A DNA stretch of 64,000 nucleotides, from positions 27,652,001 to 27,716,000 of the forward strand of contig OZ024761.1 in NCBI GenBank assembly GCA_964016885.1. Direction: 5' to 3'. The DNA comes from Eledone cirrhosa (lineage: Eukaryota). The notes beneath the pieces are model-generated. The model did not search any database and had not been told where the DNA came from. It worked only from the letters and a program-made list of their open reading frames with translations. Both the position numbers and the translations under genes were made by a program. This document shows, piece after piece, positions 36,775-50,451 of the stretch (the stretch's first letter is position 1; each line of letters begins with the position of its first letter).

Positions 36775-37305
36775 ATAAAAGACGTAAAATAAGAAAATAT
36801 CTTTTAAAAAAATTTTTAAAAAATTTTTTACTTACTTACTTAAATTTTCACTCCAACTAATTAGTTTCTGCAATGGGATAAAGACAGTTACATAATCCAA
36901 CTGTCGAGAATTCATTGCGTCATCAGGGAGTCTATTCTCAGCTGAGCCTCCAGGCAATGCGCGGACACTGGCGGCTCATATAAAAATAATAATTCGGTAG
37001 AAAGAACAGCTAGGCGAGGACTGGATTCTATGTACTGAAATTCTCACTGCTTCCAGTCAAATGGCCGATTATGTAACTGTCTTTATCCCATTGCAGAAAC
37101 TAATTAGTTGGAGAGAAAATTTAAGTAAGTAAGTAAAAAATTTTTAAAAAATTTTTTTAAAAGATATTTTCTTATTTTACGTCTTTTATATTATTGTTCT
37201 GCACCCTCCTGCATTGAACCACCTAGGTACTATGACATAACCTGTGTATTTGCTGGCATGGACGTGCATCTGTGCGCCTATGTTAGTTGATATATTAAAT
37301 TATCT
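36775..37305. mobile_element. Fold-back island (about 120-bp arms, about 170-bp spacer) with 3' extension; same family as 50205-50520
   Basis: Arms 36775-36896 and 37068-37190. The extension 37190-37305 matches the reverse complement of 50205-50320. Confidence 0.85.
36851..36930 (-). ncRNA. Type I hammerhead with a 51-nt stem II
   Basis: CUCC-CUGAUGA-cGCAAUG aauucuc GACAGUU(ggauuaugu)AACUGUC uuuaucc CAUUGCa-GAAA-CUA(au)UAG-UU-GGAG. Confidence 0.82.
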
Positions 37306-37591
37306 CTATATATATATATATATATATATATATATATGTGTGTGTGTGCATATATATATATATATATATATATATATATATATGTGTGTGTGTGTGCATA
37401 TATATATATATATATATGTATATTCGTCTTGATGGACGACGTATTGGCATCTTTGATTGTCGGATAAATTAACTCTGGAGATATAAAAGATTCAGAAGCG
37501 AAAACCAAAATGAGTGTGTTCTGTTATTATTTCTGCCAATATTATAACAATAGGACCCTCCCCAAATATAACAATATATATATATATATAT

Positions 37592-38170
37592 GGAAAAGAA
37601 TGAAATGAAACGAAATTTCATTTCTCACTCTTAGTACGGCTGATACTTAAATGTAAGTATGTCTGTATACGTACATACATATATGTATACAGATGTACAG
37701 TAGTATGTATATATATACATACATGCACACACACATATATATATATATATATATATATATATATATATATATATATATATGTATGTACGTATGGGTTTAC
37801 CGAACATTTATTATAATGTTCGGTTTGTTTGTAAATAAACAGCCCGAATTACGCCGCACAGTGTTCAGGCAAACATATTATAAATATATATATATATATA
37901 TATATACATATATATATATAAGTATGTATACGTACATACATATATATATACAGACGTACAGTAGTATGTATATATATATATATATACATACATGCACACA
38001 TATATATATGTACGTATGGATTCACCGAACATTTATTATAATGCTCGGTGTGTTTGTAAACAAACTACTGTACGTCTGTATAGATATATGTATGTACGTA
38101 TACATACTTATATTTAAGTAACAGCCGTACTAAGAGTGAGAAATAAAATTCCGTTTCATTTTTTCCGTTT
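37592..38170. repeat. Inverted repeat island with internal duplication; related to 46500-47040
   Basis: tttctcactcttagtacggctg... (37620) is mirrored by cagccgtactaagagtgagaaa (38122). 37800-37875 is a reverse-complement relative of 46905-46985. Confidence 0.8.
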
Positions 38171-38183
38171 ATATATATATATA

Positions 38184-38532
38184 TATTGTTATACTTGGGG
38201 AGGGTCAAATTTGTGTTAATATTGCCAGAATTAATAACAGAACACTCTCACTGTTTGGTTGGTTTTCTCTTTTCACTTCTGTGTCTTTTATATCGGTTAA
38301 TTTAATTTATTCGGTCCTCAATGTGTTTGTGTCTATATTGTATCTGTATTTTTGACTGTTGGTCAGTCAATAGCAACACCGATATAAAAGACACAGAAGC
38401 GAAAAGCGAAAACCAACCAAACAGCGAGTGTGTTCTGTTATTAATTCTGGCATTATTACACAAATATGACCCTCCCCAAGTATAACAATATTTGTTTCGA
38501 CACACGATTTCATATAAAAAACCTCGCAAAAC
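38184..38532. repeat. Fold-back of the shared PLE terminal module
   Basis: Arms 38184-38297 and 38377-38492, ending in gaccctccccaagtataacaata and running into 248 bp of pure (TA)n. Confidence 0.88.
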
Positions 38533-38780
38533 TATATATATATATATATATATATATATATATATATATATATATATATATATATATATATATATATATA
38601 TATATATATATATATATATATATATATATATATATATATATATATATATATATATATATATATATATATATATATATATATATATATATATATATATATA
38701 TATATATATATATATATATATATATATATATATATATATATATATATATATATATATATATATATATATATATATATATA

Positions 38781-38895
38781 AGGCGTGTGGCTGAGTGGTT
38801 AGAGAATTGGATTCGCAATCGTAAGGTTGTGAGTTCGATTCCTGGACCAGGCGATGCGTTATGTCCTTGAGCAAGACACTTTATTTCACGTTGCT
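38781..38895 (+). mobile_element. Second tRNA-derived SINE family (5' part)
   Basis: A-box TGGCTGAGTGG, B-box GTTCGATTCC, then tgtccttgagcaagacactt. Confidence 0.8.
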
Positions 38896-46172: not shown

Positions 46173-46828
46173 AATATATATATATATATATAATGTTTGT
46201 GAGCGTGTATGTATACGTATTATAGTTTGTACGTAATAGGCAATTACTTTCATTCTAGGATATGATTAAATAAAAATATAAGCAAAGAGGGTGAATAAAA
46301 TGAAGCTAGTATTAAATGACCTCAACACGCAAGTACATTCTTTCGTACAGTTATATGTCGGTAGAAAGACTTAAACCTATACCGTGTTATATTTACATAA
46401 AACCTAATTGATAAATATAACTACATATACGTATACATACACGAACATACACACACACACAGTCATATATACATGTATGTTTGTATATATGTATATATAC
46501 AAAGCGGCGTTATAATAAGAGTCCGCTAAACTGATGCGTGCATATATGTATGTGTACCTGTATGTATATATATATATATATATGTATATGCATGATACTG
46601 TACGTCTGTATACATATATGTATGTACGTATACATACATACTTATATTTAAGTAAGTGCCATACTAAGAGTGAGAAATGAAATTTCGTTTTCATTTTTTT
46701 TTCAACTTATCGTTTTCGGTATGCCTGACCGATTTAAGTCACTCAATATGCAAATTAGGCTGCTCAGCCGTTAATTTTCATAAGGAAAGTATATACTTTC
46801 GAACATTCAACTATCTCGCAGATGGGTA

Positions 46829-46873
46829 AACGGTGCTGATGATAGCTAACAAGCTTGAAACTAGTACATCGTT
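46829..46873 (+). ncRNA. Minimal type I hammerhead, intact core
   Basis: AACGGUG-CUGAUGA-uAGCU(aaca)AGCUu-GAAA-C(ua)G-UA-CAUCGUU: 7-bp stem I, palindromic ACUAGU, GUA site. Confidence 0.82.
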
Positions 46874-47049
46874 CCTGTGTCAGTGTTGAACAAAAAGGTG
46901 ACGTGGTTGCCTTAACACCGTATGGCATAAATTCAGGCTGTTCAGTTTGTTTACAAACGAACAAAGCGGCGTTATAATAAGCGTCCGCTAAACTGATGCG
47001 TGCATATATGTATGTGTACCTGTATGTATATATATATATGTATATATAT

Positions 47050-50000
47050 ACGTATCTCTCTCTCTCTCTCTCTCTCTCTCTCTCTTTCTCTCTCTCTCTC
47101 TCTCTCTCTCTCACTCTATATATATATATATATATATATATACATATATATATATATATATGTATGTATATATATATGTATGTATATATATATGTATGTA
47201 TATATATATGTATATGTATATATATATACATATACATATACGTATATGTATGTATATATATATGTACATATATACATGTATATATATATATGTATATACA
47301 TATACGTATATGTATGTATATATATATGTACATATATACATGTATATATATATATGTATATATATATATGTATATATATATATATATATATATGAATATG
47401 TATATATGTATATATATATATATATATATATGTATATATATGTTTATATATATATGTTTATATATATATGTATATATATATATATATATCTTTATATATA
47501 TACATATCTTTATATATATATATATATATGTTTATATATATATGTATATATATATATATATGTTTATATATATATATATGTGTTTATATATATATATATA
47601 TGTTTATATATATATGTTTATATATATATGTATATATATATATATATATATATATATATATATATATGTATATATATGTGTATATATATATATGTATATA
47701 TATGTATATATATATATATGTATATATATATATATATATATATATATATATGTATATATATATATATATATGTATATATATATATATATGTATATATATG
47801 TATATATATATATATATGTATATATATATGTATATGTATATATGTATATATGTATATATATATATATGTATATGTATATATGTATATATGTATATATATG
47901 TATATATGTATATATGTATATATATATATATATATATATATATATATATATCTATATATATCTATATATATCTATATATATCTATATATGTATATATATC
48001 TATATATGTATATATATATATATATGTATATATATATATATATGTATATATGTATATATATATATATGTATGTATATATATATATTTATATATGTATGTA
48101 TATATATATATCTATATATATATATGTATATATATATATATGTATGTATATATATATATATATATATGTATATATATATATATATATGTATATATATATA
48201 TATGTATGTATATATATATATATGTATGTATTTATATATATCTATATATATATATATATGTATGTATATATATATATATATATATATATGTATGTATTTA
48301 TATATATCTATATATATATATGTATGTATATGTATATATATATATATATATGTATGTATATATATATATATATATATGTATATATATATATATATATGTA
48401 TGTATATGTATATATATATATATATATGTATGTATATATATATATATATATATATATATATATGTATATATATATATATATATGTATGTATATATATATA
48501 TATATATGTATGTATATATATGTATATCTATATATATATGTATGTAAATATATATATATATATGTATGTATATATATATATATATATATGTATGTATATA
48601 TATGTATATCTATATATATATATGTATGTATATATATATATATATATGTATGTATATATATATATATCTATATATATATGTATATATATATATATATGTA
48701 TGTATATATATATATATATATATGTATGTATATATATATATATCTATATATATATGTATGTATATATATATATATATGTATATATGTATGTATATATATA
48801 TATATATATGTATATATGTATGTATATATATATATATGTATGTATATATATATATCTATATATATATATGTATGTATATATATATATATATGTATATATG
48901 TATGTATATATATATATATATGTATATATATGTATATATATATATATATGTATATATATATATGTATATATATATGTATATATATATATATGTATATATA
49001 TATGTATATATATATATGTATATATATATGTATATATATATATGTATATATATATGTATATATATATATGTATATATATATGTATATGTATATATGTATA
49101 TATGTATATATATGTATATATGTATATATATGTATATATGTATATATGTATATATATATGTATATATGTATATATATGTATATATGTATATATGTATATA
49201 TGTATATATATATGTATATATGTATATATATATGTATATATGTATATATGTATATATATATGTATATATATATATATGTATATATGTATATATATATATA
49301 TATATGTATGTATATATATATATATGTATATATATATATATGTATGTATATATATATATTTATATATGTATGTATATATATATATCTATATATATATATG
49401 TATATATATATATATATGTATATATATATGTATATATATATATCTATATATATATATGTATATATATATATATATATATATATGTATATATATATGTATA
49501 TATATATATCTATATTTATATATGTATATATATATATATATATATGTATGTATATATATATATATCTATATATATGTATGTATATATATATATATCTATA
49601 TATATATATGTATATATATATATATCTATATATATATATGTATGTATATATATATATCTATATATATATATGTATGTATATGTATATATATATATGTATG
49701 TATAAATATATATATCTATATATATATATGTATGTATATGTATATATATATATATATATGTATGTATATATATATCTATATATATGTATGTATATATATA
49801 TATATATATGTATGTATATATATATATATATATATATATGTATATATATATATATATATATATATATGTATATATATATATCTATATATATGTATGTATA
49901 TATATATATATATATATATATATATATATATGTATGTATATATATATGTATGTATATATATATGTATGTATATATATATGTATGTATATATATATCTATA

Positions 50001-50200
50001 TATATATATATGTATGTATATATATATCTATATATATATATATGTATGTATATATATATATGTATATATGTATGTATATATATATATATATGTATATATA
50101 TATATATATATGTATATATGTATGTATATATATATATATATATATGTATATATGTATGCATATATATATATATATATGTATGTATATATATATATATGTA
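47050..50200. repeat. About 3.1-kb compound (TA)n/(TG) microsatellite
   Basis: Continuous interrupted TA repeats. The >1000-aa ORFs are stop-free artefacts. Confidence 0.97.
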
Positions 50201-50372
50201 TAAAGAATTAGTATATCTAGTAACATATATATACACAGATGCATACTTATGATAGCAAATATATTGGTTTTGTCTTAGTAACATTGTGGTTCAATGCATG
50301 GGGATGCAGAACAATCATATGAGAAACGTAAAATAAGAAAATTATAAAATTAACTTACTTACTAAAATTTCA

Positions 50373-50451
50373 CTCCAACTAATTAGTTTCTGAAAGGGAA
50401 TAAACATAGTTTCCGAAGAAACGTACGGAGAAGCCTTTCGTCATCAGGGAA
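50373..50451 (-). ncRNA. Type I hammerhead with a 50-nt stem II (family of 36851-36930)
   Basis: UUCC-CUGAUGA-cGAAAGG cuucuc CGUAcGUUUC(uucg)GAAACUAUG uuuauuc CCUUUCa-GAAA-CUA(au)UAG-UU-GGAG. Confidence 0.82.

What the first reader, a model, noticed from the sequence alone, without database searches (positions are those of the whole stretch)
36851..50451. Hammerhead family with long covarying stem II and a possible novel pseudoknot
Seen: the copies at 36851-36930 and 50373-50451 (both minus) keep an identical core and palindromic stem III, but stem II is rewritten with compensatory changes (GCAAUG/CAUUGC vs GAAAGG/CCUUUC; distal hairpin GACAGUU/AACUGUC vs GUUUC-uucg-GAAAC). A C.A closing mismatch and an internal loop UUCUC/UUUAU are conserved, and GAGAA is conserved just 5' of stem I in both. 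Inferred: UUCUC pairs with GAGAA as a stem I-stem II tertiary contact replacing the usual loop 1/loop 2 interaction. This would be an unusual hammerhead architecture under structural selection.
Basis: partly seen in the sequence, partly recalled or inferred. Interest (0 to 1): 0.85.

Follow-up and report, generated by a model that had tools for sequence, protein, structure and literature searches.

The report
Pseudoknotted hammerhead in abundant animal retrozymes
These are two of about ten thousand genomic copies of a small non-coding mobile repeat that carries a hammerhead self-cutting RNA motif; its two arms keep a matching base-paired contact across five sequence families, and that contact likely switches cutting on in fresh transcripts and is likely blocked once the RNA has closed into a circle.

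Summary
Observation confirmed. Both sites are type I hammerheads with a palindromic stem III. They sit in a non-coding repeat of about 520-570 bp that forms tandem arrays, lands in (TA)n and has 5' inversions: a non-LTR retrozyme, likely moved by Penelope-like elements. The main family gives 9,541 pattern hits in this genome. Stem II covariation is strong. The proposed UUCUC:GAGAA pairing is supported. Inside the family it changes to UUUUC:GAAAA (78 of 99 listed places), although that is only about one independent event. Four other families use different matching strands at the same position; for two of them I predicted the partner before looking. The C·A 'mismatch' is not general. GAGAAU has a second, mutually exclusive partner across the cleavage site, which suggests an on/off switch. 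Cleavage, expression and the sign of the effect are untested, and no RNA run was listed. Stem I-stem II pseudoknots are well known in hammerheads. I did not find this form (5' flank to an internal loop of a long stem II, in animal retrozymes) in the papers searched, and Rfam misses it. The scan noted a loosely similar switch idea in another genome, with no sequence match. Verdict: new variant of a known kind.

The parts
36773..37070 (-). 5'-truncated copy of the subfamily A repeat carrying the complete hammerhead; its 3' end runs into (TA)n
   Evidence: 98% over 299 bp to a natural tandem stretch of subfamily A; TA array at 36688-36777
37067..37313 (+). Inverted, more truncated copy of the same insertion (3' half of the hammerhead plus about 200 bp), ending in (TA)n: a Penelope-type 5' inversion
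   Evidence: 96% over 248 bp; TA array at 37307-37423
36934..36939 (-). Copy A: upstream strand GAGAAU (pseudoknot 5' strand; alternatively part of extended stem I)
36927..36931 (-). Copy A: stem I 5' strand ACUCC
36920..36926 (-). Copy A: core C3-A9, CUGAUGA, followed by the extra C at 36919
36870..36918 (-). Copy A: long stem II. Proximal GCAAUG (36918-36913) / CAUUGC (36875-36870); internal loop 5' strand AAUUCUC with the pseudoknot strand AUUCUC (36911-36906); 7-bp distal hairpin; 3' loop strand UUUAUCC
36855..36868 (-). Copy A: GAAA, palindromic stem III and GUU triplet; predicted cut between 36855 and 36854
36833..36854 (-). Copy A: stem I 3' strand GGAGU (36854-36850) and the downstream AUUUAAGUAAG tract that can extend stem I
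50199..50532 (-). 5'-truncated copy of the subfamily B repeat, between two (TA)n tracts
   Evidence: 96% over 335 bp; TA arrays at 47117-50202 and 50532-50730
50457..50461 (-). Copy B: upstream GAGAA
50441..50447 (-). Copy B: core CUGAUGA
50392..50439 (-). Copy B: long stem II. GAAAGG / CCUUUC, loop strand UUCUC (50432-50428), distal CGUA-c-GUUUC-UUCG-GAAAC-UAUG, 3' loop strand UUUAUUC
50377..50390 (-). Copy B: GAAA, palindromic stem III and GUU triplet; predicted cut between 50377 and 50376
50355..50376 (-). Copy B: stem I 3' strand and the AUUUUAGUAAG tract of extended stem I

Best explanation
The two sites are copies of a type I hammerhead motif in a non-coding tandem repeat of about 520-570 bp, whose upstream strand (GAGAA) stays complementary to the 5' strand of an internal loop in a long stem II; this pseudoknot likely docks stems I and II and promotes self-cleavage of multimeric transcripts, and is likely displaced by a longer stem I once the unit-length RNA has circularised. 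Steps: (1) Shown: arrays of 521-571 bp units carry one hammerhead each, have no ORF, and insert in (TA)n with 5' inversions. (2) Inferred: read-through of an array gives a multimeric RNA in which both pseudoknot strands are made before the 3' strands and can pair first. (3) Inferred from known dimer hammerheads: stem III is too weak as a hairpin, so two adjacent motifs pair through the 10-nt palindrome and cut after GUU. (4) Predicted by folding: the released monomer closes into a rod-like circle in which GAGAAU pairs across the junction with AUUUU, which would hold the ends for ligation and turn the ribozyme off. (5) Inferred: a Penelope-like RT/GIY-YIG protein acting in trans primes at (TA)n and starts at one of two fixed sites downstream of the cut site on a circular or uncut template, giving tandem copies.
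For: Stem II: all 6 proximal pairs are paired in every cell with letters of 39 distinct rows; one position shows four pair types (GC 17, UA 9, AU 8, CG 5); structures slid by 1-3 columns fall to 39-51% paired. Pseudoknot inside the family: GAGAA with UUCUC has 7,919 hits and GAGAA with UUUUC at most 227 (many are UUUUCUC false matches, the rest are G·U wobbles). Upstream GAAAA has 223 hits, and 78 of the 99 distinct places among the 100 listed have UUUUC (one row reclassed). Other families in the same register: G GAAGAAUU:AAUUCUUC; J AAAGA:UCUUU, with a subgroup UGAAAAGA:UCUUUUCA; K GGAAAAU:AUUUUCC; L GAGUUUA:UAAACUC. For K and L the upstream strand was predicted from the loop before it was read. 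Shuffle controls for helix length: A 92, G 6, J 878, J2 8 and K 144 of 5,000. The geometry of about 5 bp stem I plus 6 bp stem II matches the pseudoknotted type III motifs of PMC7936874. Stem III does not fold as a lone hairpin but forms a -9.0 kcal/mol self-duplex. Circular monomers fold better than shuffles (z -2.5 to -6.7, 4 of 4 units, 25 shuffles each), with extended stem I across the junction. Of 73 copies that end rather than continue in tandem, 64 stop at one of two sites and run into TA (121 copies examined).
Against: There are no cleavage or expression data. The compensatory change inside the main family is about one independent event (independent-pairs sign test p = 1). The same G-to-A change also improves extended stem I (G·U to A-U), and that helix has its own compensatory pair in subfamily D. 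An uncompensated loop UUCAC with GAGAA occurs in 6 of 100 rows, at 4 loci. The sixth pair is unpaired in 23 of 39 rows. Main family J has only 5 bp, which is not significant (878 of 5,000). Family L rests on one copy. In the old family G only 10 of 32 decayed copies keep both 7-nt strands intact. Predicted minimum-energy folds often put the same helix in a nested hairpin around the core instead. The GUU triplet is a slow one (recalled, not from a call), and the palindrome can also pair A14 with U17. No autonomous partner with a homologous end was found in the 260 loci scanned for ORFs. In one Penelope-like element, cleavage was not needed for insertion in vitro (PMC11167929), and 8 of 9 frog retrozyme dimers did not cleave (bioRxiv 2026.07.22.740005).
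Confidence: 0.62

Rival explanations
1. The pairing is real but inhibitory or a folding intermediate. It traps the core in a 5' hairpin, or holds stems I and II in an inactive pose, so that a lone motif stays off until a dimer or the Penelope protein refolds it, as with the attenuating loop contact of the cereal yellow dwarf virus-RPV satellite hammerhead.
For: For most families the 5' part alone folds into a nested hairpin closed by this helix, with the core inside; in D, E and F the stem I 5' strand also pairs with the stem II 5' strand. [quoted passage not shown] The loop 1-to-stem II bulge detail is recalled; the paper is not held.
Against: Stem II is fully conserved by compensation and is compatible with the helix as a pseudoknot. 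The register relative to the core is nearly constant over the 11 correctly parsed rows, as expected for a docked contact. Published stem I-II pseudoknots raise activity (PMC3088659).
Confidence: 0.2
2. GAGAA is conserved only because it pairs in extended stem I (the rod fold of the circle). The match to the stem II loop is a by-product of purine-rich and pyrimidine-rich tracts.
For: Extended stem I is 92.5% paired in the same alignment and has one compensatory pair. It is favoured in the predicted ensemble for B, C and one F copy (pairing probability up to 0.99). There is only about one independent compensatory event in the main family.
Against: It does not explain why the loop changed C to U together with upstream G to A, nor the different exact complements of 7-8 bp in G, J2, K and L, where L is not a purine tract.
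Confidence: 0.08
3. The hammerhead is nearly inactive by itself. The conserved fold serves mainly as the handle by which a Penelope-like protein binds and copies uncut multimeric RNA, and any cleavage is protein-assisted.
For: The element's 3' ends lie 60-210 nt past the cut site, so the copied template spans it. In Anolis Poseidon, unprocessed RNA is the main substrate and cleavage needs the protein (PMC11167929). Minimal PLE hammerheads cleave poorly in vitro (PMC4209133).
Against: The core, palindromic stem III and a stem I-II contact are all kept over five families, and unit-length arrays of one hammerhead per unit fit cut-and-circularise replication as shown for coral, mussel and axolotl retrozymes (PMC7229834).
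Confidence: 0.1

Closest known systems
Metazoan non-LTR retrozymes (Cervera and de la Pena 2020, PMC7229834; Li, Clavereau, Pollet, bioRxiv 10.64898/2026.07.22.740005)
   Same: Non-coding, low-GC tandem repeats with one type I hammerhead per unit, thousands of copies, predicted self-paired circles and a weak palindromic stem III that favours dimers.
   Different: Units are 483-573 bp (150-450 bp in the 2020 paper; 51-972 bp in the 2026 preprint). Stem II is long and interrupted rather than a 4-bp hairpin, and the stem I-II contact is Watson-Crick. Circular RNA is not shown here.
Hammerheads in pseudo-LTRs of Penelope-like elements (PMC4209133; insertion pattern in bioRxiv 10.1101/2021.04.23.441226; PMC11167929)
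   Same: Type I, longer helix II, an extra nucleotide between 9 and 10.1, palindromic stem III, 5' inversions, (TA)n targets and fixed internal 3' ends downstream of the ribozyme.
   Different: No RT or GIY-YIG ORF in the element. The minimal PLE motifs are described as lacking tertiary contacts (PMC6155905). The extra A before G12 is not described in the sections read.
Pseudoknot-stabilised hammerheads (Perreault et al. 2011, PMC3088659, including the human C10 hammerhead; atypical type III motifs of toad and termite HDV-like RNAs and Drosophila pseudoobscura, PMC7936874)
   Same: A 5-8 bp Watson-Crick helix links the peripheries of stems I and II; stem lengths are about 5 and 6 bp; one partner is the 5' strand of an internal loop capped by an extra hairpin.
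   Different: Here the internal loop is in stem II (mirror image), the topology is type I, the partner is the 5' flank of stem I, and that flank has a second partner across the cleavage site. The figures of those papers were not visible.
Cereal yellow dwarf virus-RPV satellite RNA hammerhead (Miller and Silver 1991; Song et al. 1999; titles seen in reference lists, details recalled)
   Same: A loop contact between helices I and II controls cleavage, and cleavage needs a double hammerhead (from the titles). Recalled: the contact is to a bulge in an extended stem II.
   Different: It is a plant viral satellite RNA, and its contact attenuates cleavage; the sign of the effect is unknown here.

Membership tests
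Type I hammerhead ribozyme | Core C3 U4 G5 A6 N7 G8 A9, G12 A13 A14 A15, U16, H17 (as listed in PMC3088659) | tested here: met
   N7 is U or C across subfamilies, H17 is U
Type I hammerhead ribozyme | Three stems around the core with stem I open | tested here: met
   stem III is stable only as an intermolecular duplex
Type I hammerhead ribozyme | G10.1-C11.1 pair directly next to A9 and G12 | tested here: not met
   An extra C and an extra A flank the G-C pair in the main family. An extra 5' nucleotide is known in PLE motifs, and a U·U at the base of stem II in an axolotl retrozyme. Families J, K and L have the canonical junction.
Type I hammerhead ribozyme | Match to an Rfam hammerhead model | tested here: not met
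   No hammerhead family up to E = 10 in 36800-37000; none at gathering score in 4 loci; none among the 150 of 415 rows shown for the window
Type I hammerhead ribozyme | Site-specific self-cleavage | not testable with these tools
   No RNA holder listed
Non-LTR retrozyme | Tandem repeat with a type I hammerhead in every unit | tested here: met
   555-bp spacing over about 19 kb on C1; 91 distinct units, mostly 521-557 bp
Non-LTR retrozyme | Non-coding and GC under 50% | tested here: met
   Longest ATG ORF 27 aa (A) and 53 aa (B); GC 0.37 and 0.36
Non-LTR retrozyme | Highly self-paired circular monomer | tested here: met
   Prediction only: z -3.7 (A), -6.7 (F), -2.5 (J), -5.0 (K)
Non-LTR retrozyme | Expressed as linear and circular unit-length RNA | not testable with these tools
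   (contigs only, kind not on record)
Non-LTR retrozyme | No LTR, PBS or PPT; long target-site duplications when present | tested here: inconclusive
   Insertions are in (TA)n, so duplications cannot be read; PBS and PPT were not searched
Penelope-like element (autonomous) | RT plus GIY-YIG ORF between pseudo-LTRs | tested here: not met
   ORF scan of 260 loci: PLE-like ORFs occur only as neighbours, and the four loci printed (L093, L183, L218, L259) show them as separate pieces
Penelope-like element (autonomous) | Insertion signature: partial tandems, 5' inversion, microsatellite target, fixed 3' ends | tested here: met
   signature described
Penelope-like element (autonomous) | Homology to the pseudo-LTR of an autonomous element in the genome | tested here: inconclusive
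   No match to the window's own PLE; no genome-wide search for a partner was run
Pseudoknot-stabilised hammerhead (Perreault 2011) | Four or more Watson-Crick pairs between stem I and stem II peripheries, kept by covariation | tested here: met
   weak as a within-family phylogenetic test
Pseudoknot-stabilised hammerhead (Perreault 2011) | Disruption lowers the rate and compensation restores it | not testable with these tools
   Needs kinetics

The most novel reading that the evidence does not exclude
A radiation of at least five retrozyme families in one animal genome (over 10,000 pattern hits, unseen by Rfam) uses one short strand as a life-cycle switch. In the nascent multimer it forms a pseudoknot with an internal loop of stem II and activates a double hammerhead. 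In the circle it flips into an extended stem I that clamps the junction and silences the ribozyme, leaving an intact template for Penelope-driven rolling-circle reverse transcription.
Probability: 0.35. Interest if true: 0.75.

Novelty: new variant of a known kind. Interest (0 to 1): 0.56.

Why it matters
It adds a hammerhead layout with natural compensatory variants ready for testing, and shows that profile searches miss a family with about ten thousand copies in one genome. If the two-partner switch holds, it answers a practical open question about retrozymes and Penelope-like elements: how a ribozyme that must cut the precursor avoids cutting the circular template that is later copied across the cut site. 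The youngest subfamilies (40 of 40 scored hits 100% identical) give a clean system for testing circle formation and trans-mobilisation. If the contact is only an ordinary activating pseudoknot, this is a modest extension of Perreault 2011.

Tried and rejected
Rfam found no hammerhead model match; the miRNA hits are TA-repeat artefacts. The search for sequencing runs gave 'no RNA holder listed'. Four runs of unrecorded kind from 2 studies were laid as contigs; they hold family variants and a head-to-tail joint but say nothing on expression or cleavage. A metagenome scan with the main-family pattern gave 0 hits. Single-copy folding z-scores were not significant. A pattern for other stem III sequences was close to background (376 hits versus 151 control) but gave the lead to family G. 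No autonomous partner was found; the window's own PLE fragment carries a different, minimal hammerhead. The C·A mismatch as a conserved pair was rejected. The within-family independent-pairs test had no power. Row G2 (empty upstream window) and row G (decayed copy, wrong parse) were discarded. In alignment A1, rows L097 and L104 are shifted by one column in the loop, which accounts for 2 of the 4 G·U cells at pair 18-50 and for the unpaired cells at 17-51 and 20-48. A1 holds 40 rows I picked by hand to cover subfamilies (the two window copies and 38 rows from the 219 parsed copies), so it leans towards intact copies. Lunse 2017, Miller and Silver 1991 and Song and Miller 2004 are not held. PMC1636495 had no passage on GUU, and the one paper listed was not read.

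
Full report
Observation. Each reads stem I - CUGAUGA - extra C - 6-bp stem II - internal loop (UUCUC / UUUAU) - distal hairpin - extra A - GAAA - palindromic stem III - GUU - stem I. GAGAA lies 13-14 nt upstream of C3. Single copies do not fold better than shuffles, and Rfam gives no hammerhead match.

The element. The window lies on contig C22 of a 3.0-Gb genome. It is probably an octopod, which I recall from its SINE-like repeats and TA richness; no call establishes this. 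Copy A has at least 670 candidates, and the 40 scored are 100% identical, many at 555-bp spacing. Copy B has at least 1,467 candidates. Three disjoint patterns give 2,843, 5,246 and 1,452 hits with 0 in each control; variable gaps can count a place twice. Units are mostly 521-557 bp (91 distinct). A and B units are 72% identical, 36-37% GC and non-coding. Insertions sit in (TA)n, often with an inverted truncated copy at the 5' side; window copy A is such a case (36773-37313). Of 121 A and B copies examined, 48 continue in tandem, and 64 of the other 73 end at one of two homologous sites (about +80 and +200 in A, +60 and +170 in B, counted from the cut site) and run into TA. Partial tandems, 5' inversions and microsatellite bias are described for Penelope-like elements (passages of bioRxiv 2021.04.23.441226), as is internal initiation of reverse transcription (passages of PMC11167929). 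Tandem non-coding repeats with a type I hammerhead are non-LTR retrozymes (PMC7229834, parts 2-3 of 6), proposed to derive from Penelope pseudo-LTRs (bioRxiv 2026.07.22.740005, parts 1-3 of 5). No RT or endonuclease ORF belongs to the element in 260 loci scanned.

Stem II. In a 40-row alignment picked by hand to cover subfamilies, proximal stem II is paired in every cell with letters. Three of its 6 pairs change on both sides and one shows four pair types. The distal stem is 90% paired with 3 of 4 pairs compensating. Slid controls fall to 39-51% paired. The extra C and A are fixed in the main family but are A/A in family G and absent in J, K and L, so they are not a general pair.

The pseudoknot inside the family. 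GAGAA with loop UUCUC has 7,919 hits. GAGAA with UUUUC has at most 227 hits, many of them false matches to UUUUCUC and the rest G·U wobbles. Upstream GAAAA has 223 hits. Of the 100 rows listed, one is a duplicate place, 78 have UUUUC and 21 have UUCUC (one row reclassed); the 21 are scattered over subfamilies like single late mutations. Subfamily D has GGAAAA with UUUUC(C/U). With the pseudoknot letters masked, trees put the A-U state mostly in one clade, near a group holding the two G·U copies. That is about one event, at most two or three, and the independent-pairs test has no power (59 rows, enriched for discordant copies by my searches). Against strictness, UUCAC with unchanged GAGAA appears in 6 of 100 rows at 4 loci.

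The pseudoknot across families. Four more families with the same layout turned up. G is old (about 75-85% identity among hits, at least 493 candidates) and has GAAGAAUU:AAUUCUUC, stem III ACCAUGGU and mostly GUC. J has a 483-bp unit and AAAGA:UCUUU, extended to 8 bp in one subgroup. K has a 485-bp unit and GGAAAAU:AUUUUCC. One pattern counts J and K together at 2,265 hits against 8 control. L is a single copy with GAGUUUA:UAAACUC. For K and L, I predicted the upstream strand from the loop seen before reading it. The helix keeps its register: the outer pair joins position -10 to -15 from C3 with +11 to +15 from the first G of stem II. Shuffles of the upstream window reach the observed length in 92 (A), 293 (B), 59 (F), 251 (D), 6 (G), 878 (J), 8 (J2) and 144 (K) of 5,000 trials; the windows were chosen after seeing the data. 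J shares a short downstream stretch with A (72% over 85 bp); G and K show no BLAST match to A, so how independent the families are is not settled.

A second partner. GAGAAU also pairs with AUUUU 3' of the cut site, followed by ACUUA/UAAGU, which extends stem I. This helix is 92.5% paired in the same alignment and has one compensatory pair. It dominates the predicted ensemble for B, C and one F copy but not A, D or E. Circular monomers of A, F, J and K fold as rods closed by this extension (z -2.5 to -6.7). The two pairings of GAGAAU exclude each other; the distal ACUUA/UAAGU part could coexist with the pseudoknot.

Mechanism. Shown: anatomy, copy structure and complementarity kept under change. 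Inferred: both pseudoknot strands are transcribed first and pair. Stem III, unstable as a hairpin but -9.0 kcal/mol as a self-duplex, forms between neighbouring units as in known dimer hammerheads (PMC4209133, parts 1-2 of 4). Cleavage frees monomers; extended stem I clamps the ends and removes the contact; a Penelope-like protein copies the circle, or an uncut multimer, from fixed internal sites into (TA)n. I put the pairing being real at about 0.85, an activating role at about 0.65-0.7 given that, and the full switch at 0.35. The main rival is an inhibitory role, since the 5' half alone folds into a hairpin around the core.

Comparison. Watson-Crick pseudoknots between stems I and II were predicted for about 40% of hammerheads of all three types and shown to raise activity (passages and section 10 of PMC3088659). 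Type III motifs with a 5-bp stem I, an internal loop and a cap hairpin pair with the loop of a 6-bp stem II (passages of PMC7936874), which is the mirror of this layout. [quoted passage not shown] I found no description of this layout in animal retrozymes, or of these families, in the listings of searches or in the passages read, which also include PMC10085705, PMC6765202 and PMC3185516. Figures, supplements and three key papers were not seen and could hold it. The scan's own index had nothing for this genome or sequence and one loosely similar switch idea in another genome.

Verdict. It is a new variant of a known kind, with function untested. Interest 0.56.

Noticed in passing
window 42500-46200: A decayed Penelope-like element (RT-thumb-like and GIY-YIG-like pieces on +, with stops; motif names recalled) with inverted terminal copies and a minimal type I hammerhead at 42700-42666 (-), inserted in (TA)n. 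It is a candidate class of trans-mobiliser but shows no homology to the repeat studied.
   Followed up: partly
L173:2619-2777 (+); L320:1941-2096 (+); L151:500-660 (+); L331:545-670 (+): Families J, K, G and L: further hammerhead repeats with the same long stem II and matching upstream strand but different sequences; J is young and abundant.
   Followed up: yes
L231-L260 (family G alignment): Many G copies read CCGAUGA or CCAAUGA instead of CUGAUGA, which suggests a master with a U4C core change followed by CpG decay.
   Followed up: no
L158:540-680 (+), L159, L160, L161, L126, L150: Another dispersed, decayed hammerhead-like family (CUGAUGA-U-GUCACCAGG...GAAAUGUGCAUA-GUGU) with a near-palindromic stem III.
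   Followed up: no
L218:1000-1230 (+), L259: The 3' end of a Neptune-like element (linker motif recalled) carries a hammerhead-like motif with CAGAAGA in place of CUGAnGA and also ends in (TA)n at two sites.
   Followed up: no
L173:2664 and L122:858 versus A and B units: The motif CAUUGAACCAC is shared by the A, B, F and J units about 100-120 nt past the cut site, between the two preferred 3' ends of A and B; it may be a protein-binding or priming signal.
   Followed up: no
window 22017-22364, 44140-44560, 51180-52030: Several copies, some in tandem, of a SINE-like repeat of about 170 bp; resemblance to octopus SINEs is recalled, not tested.
   Followed up: no
window 23971-26240 and 60131-64000: An 80-82 bp minisatellite region and a long 21-bp satellite running off the window end.
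   Followed up: no
window 31526-31621: A near-perfect 95-bp hairpin around a TA core, the source of the top Rfam miRNA hits, all below gathering score; probably a fold-back insertion junction.
   Followed up: no
G000:C2:8228639-8264354: A long array of roughly 40-bp units containing CTGACGAG and CAGAAA that matched the loose hammerhead pattern; probably a satellite, not examined.
   Followed up: no
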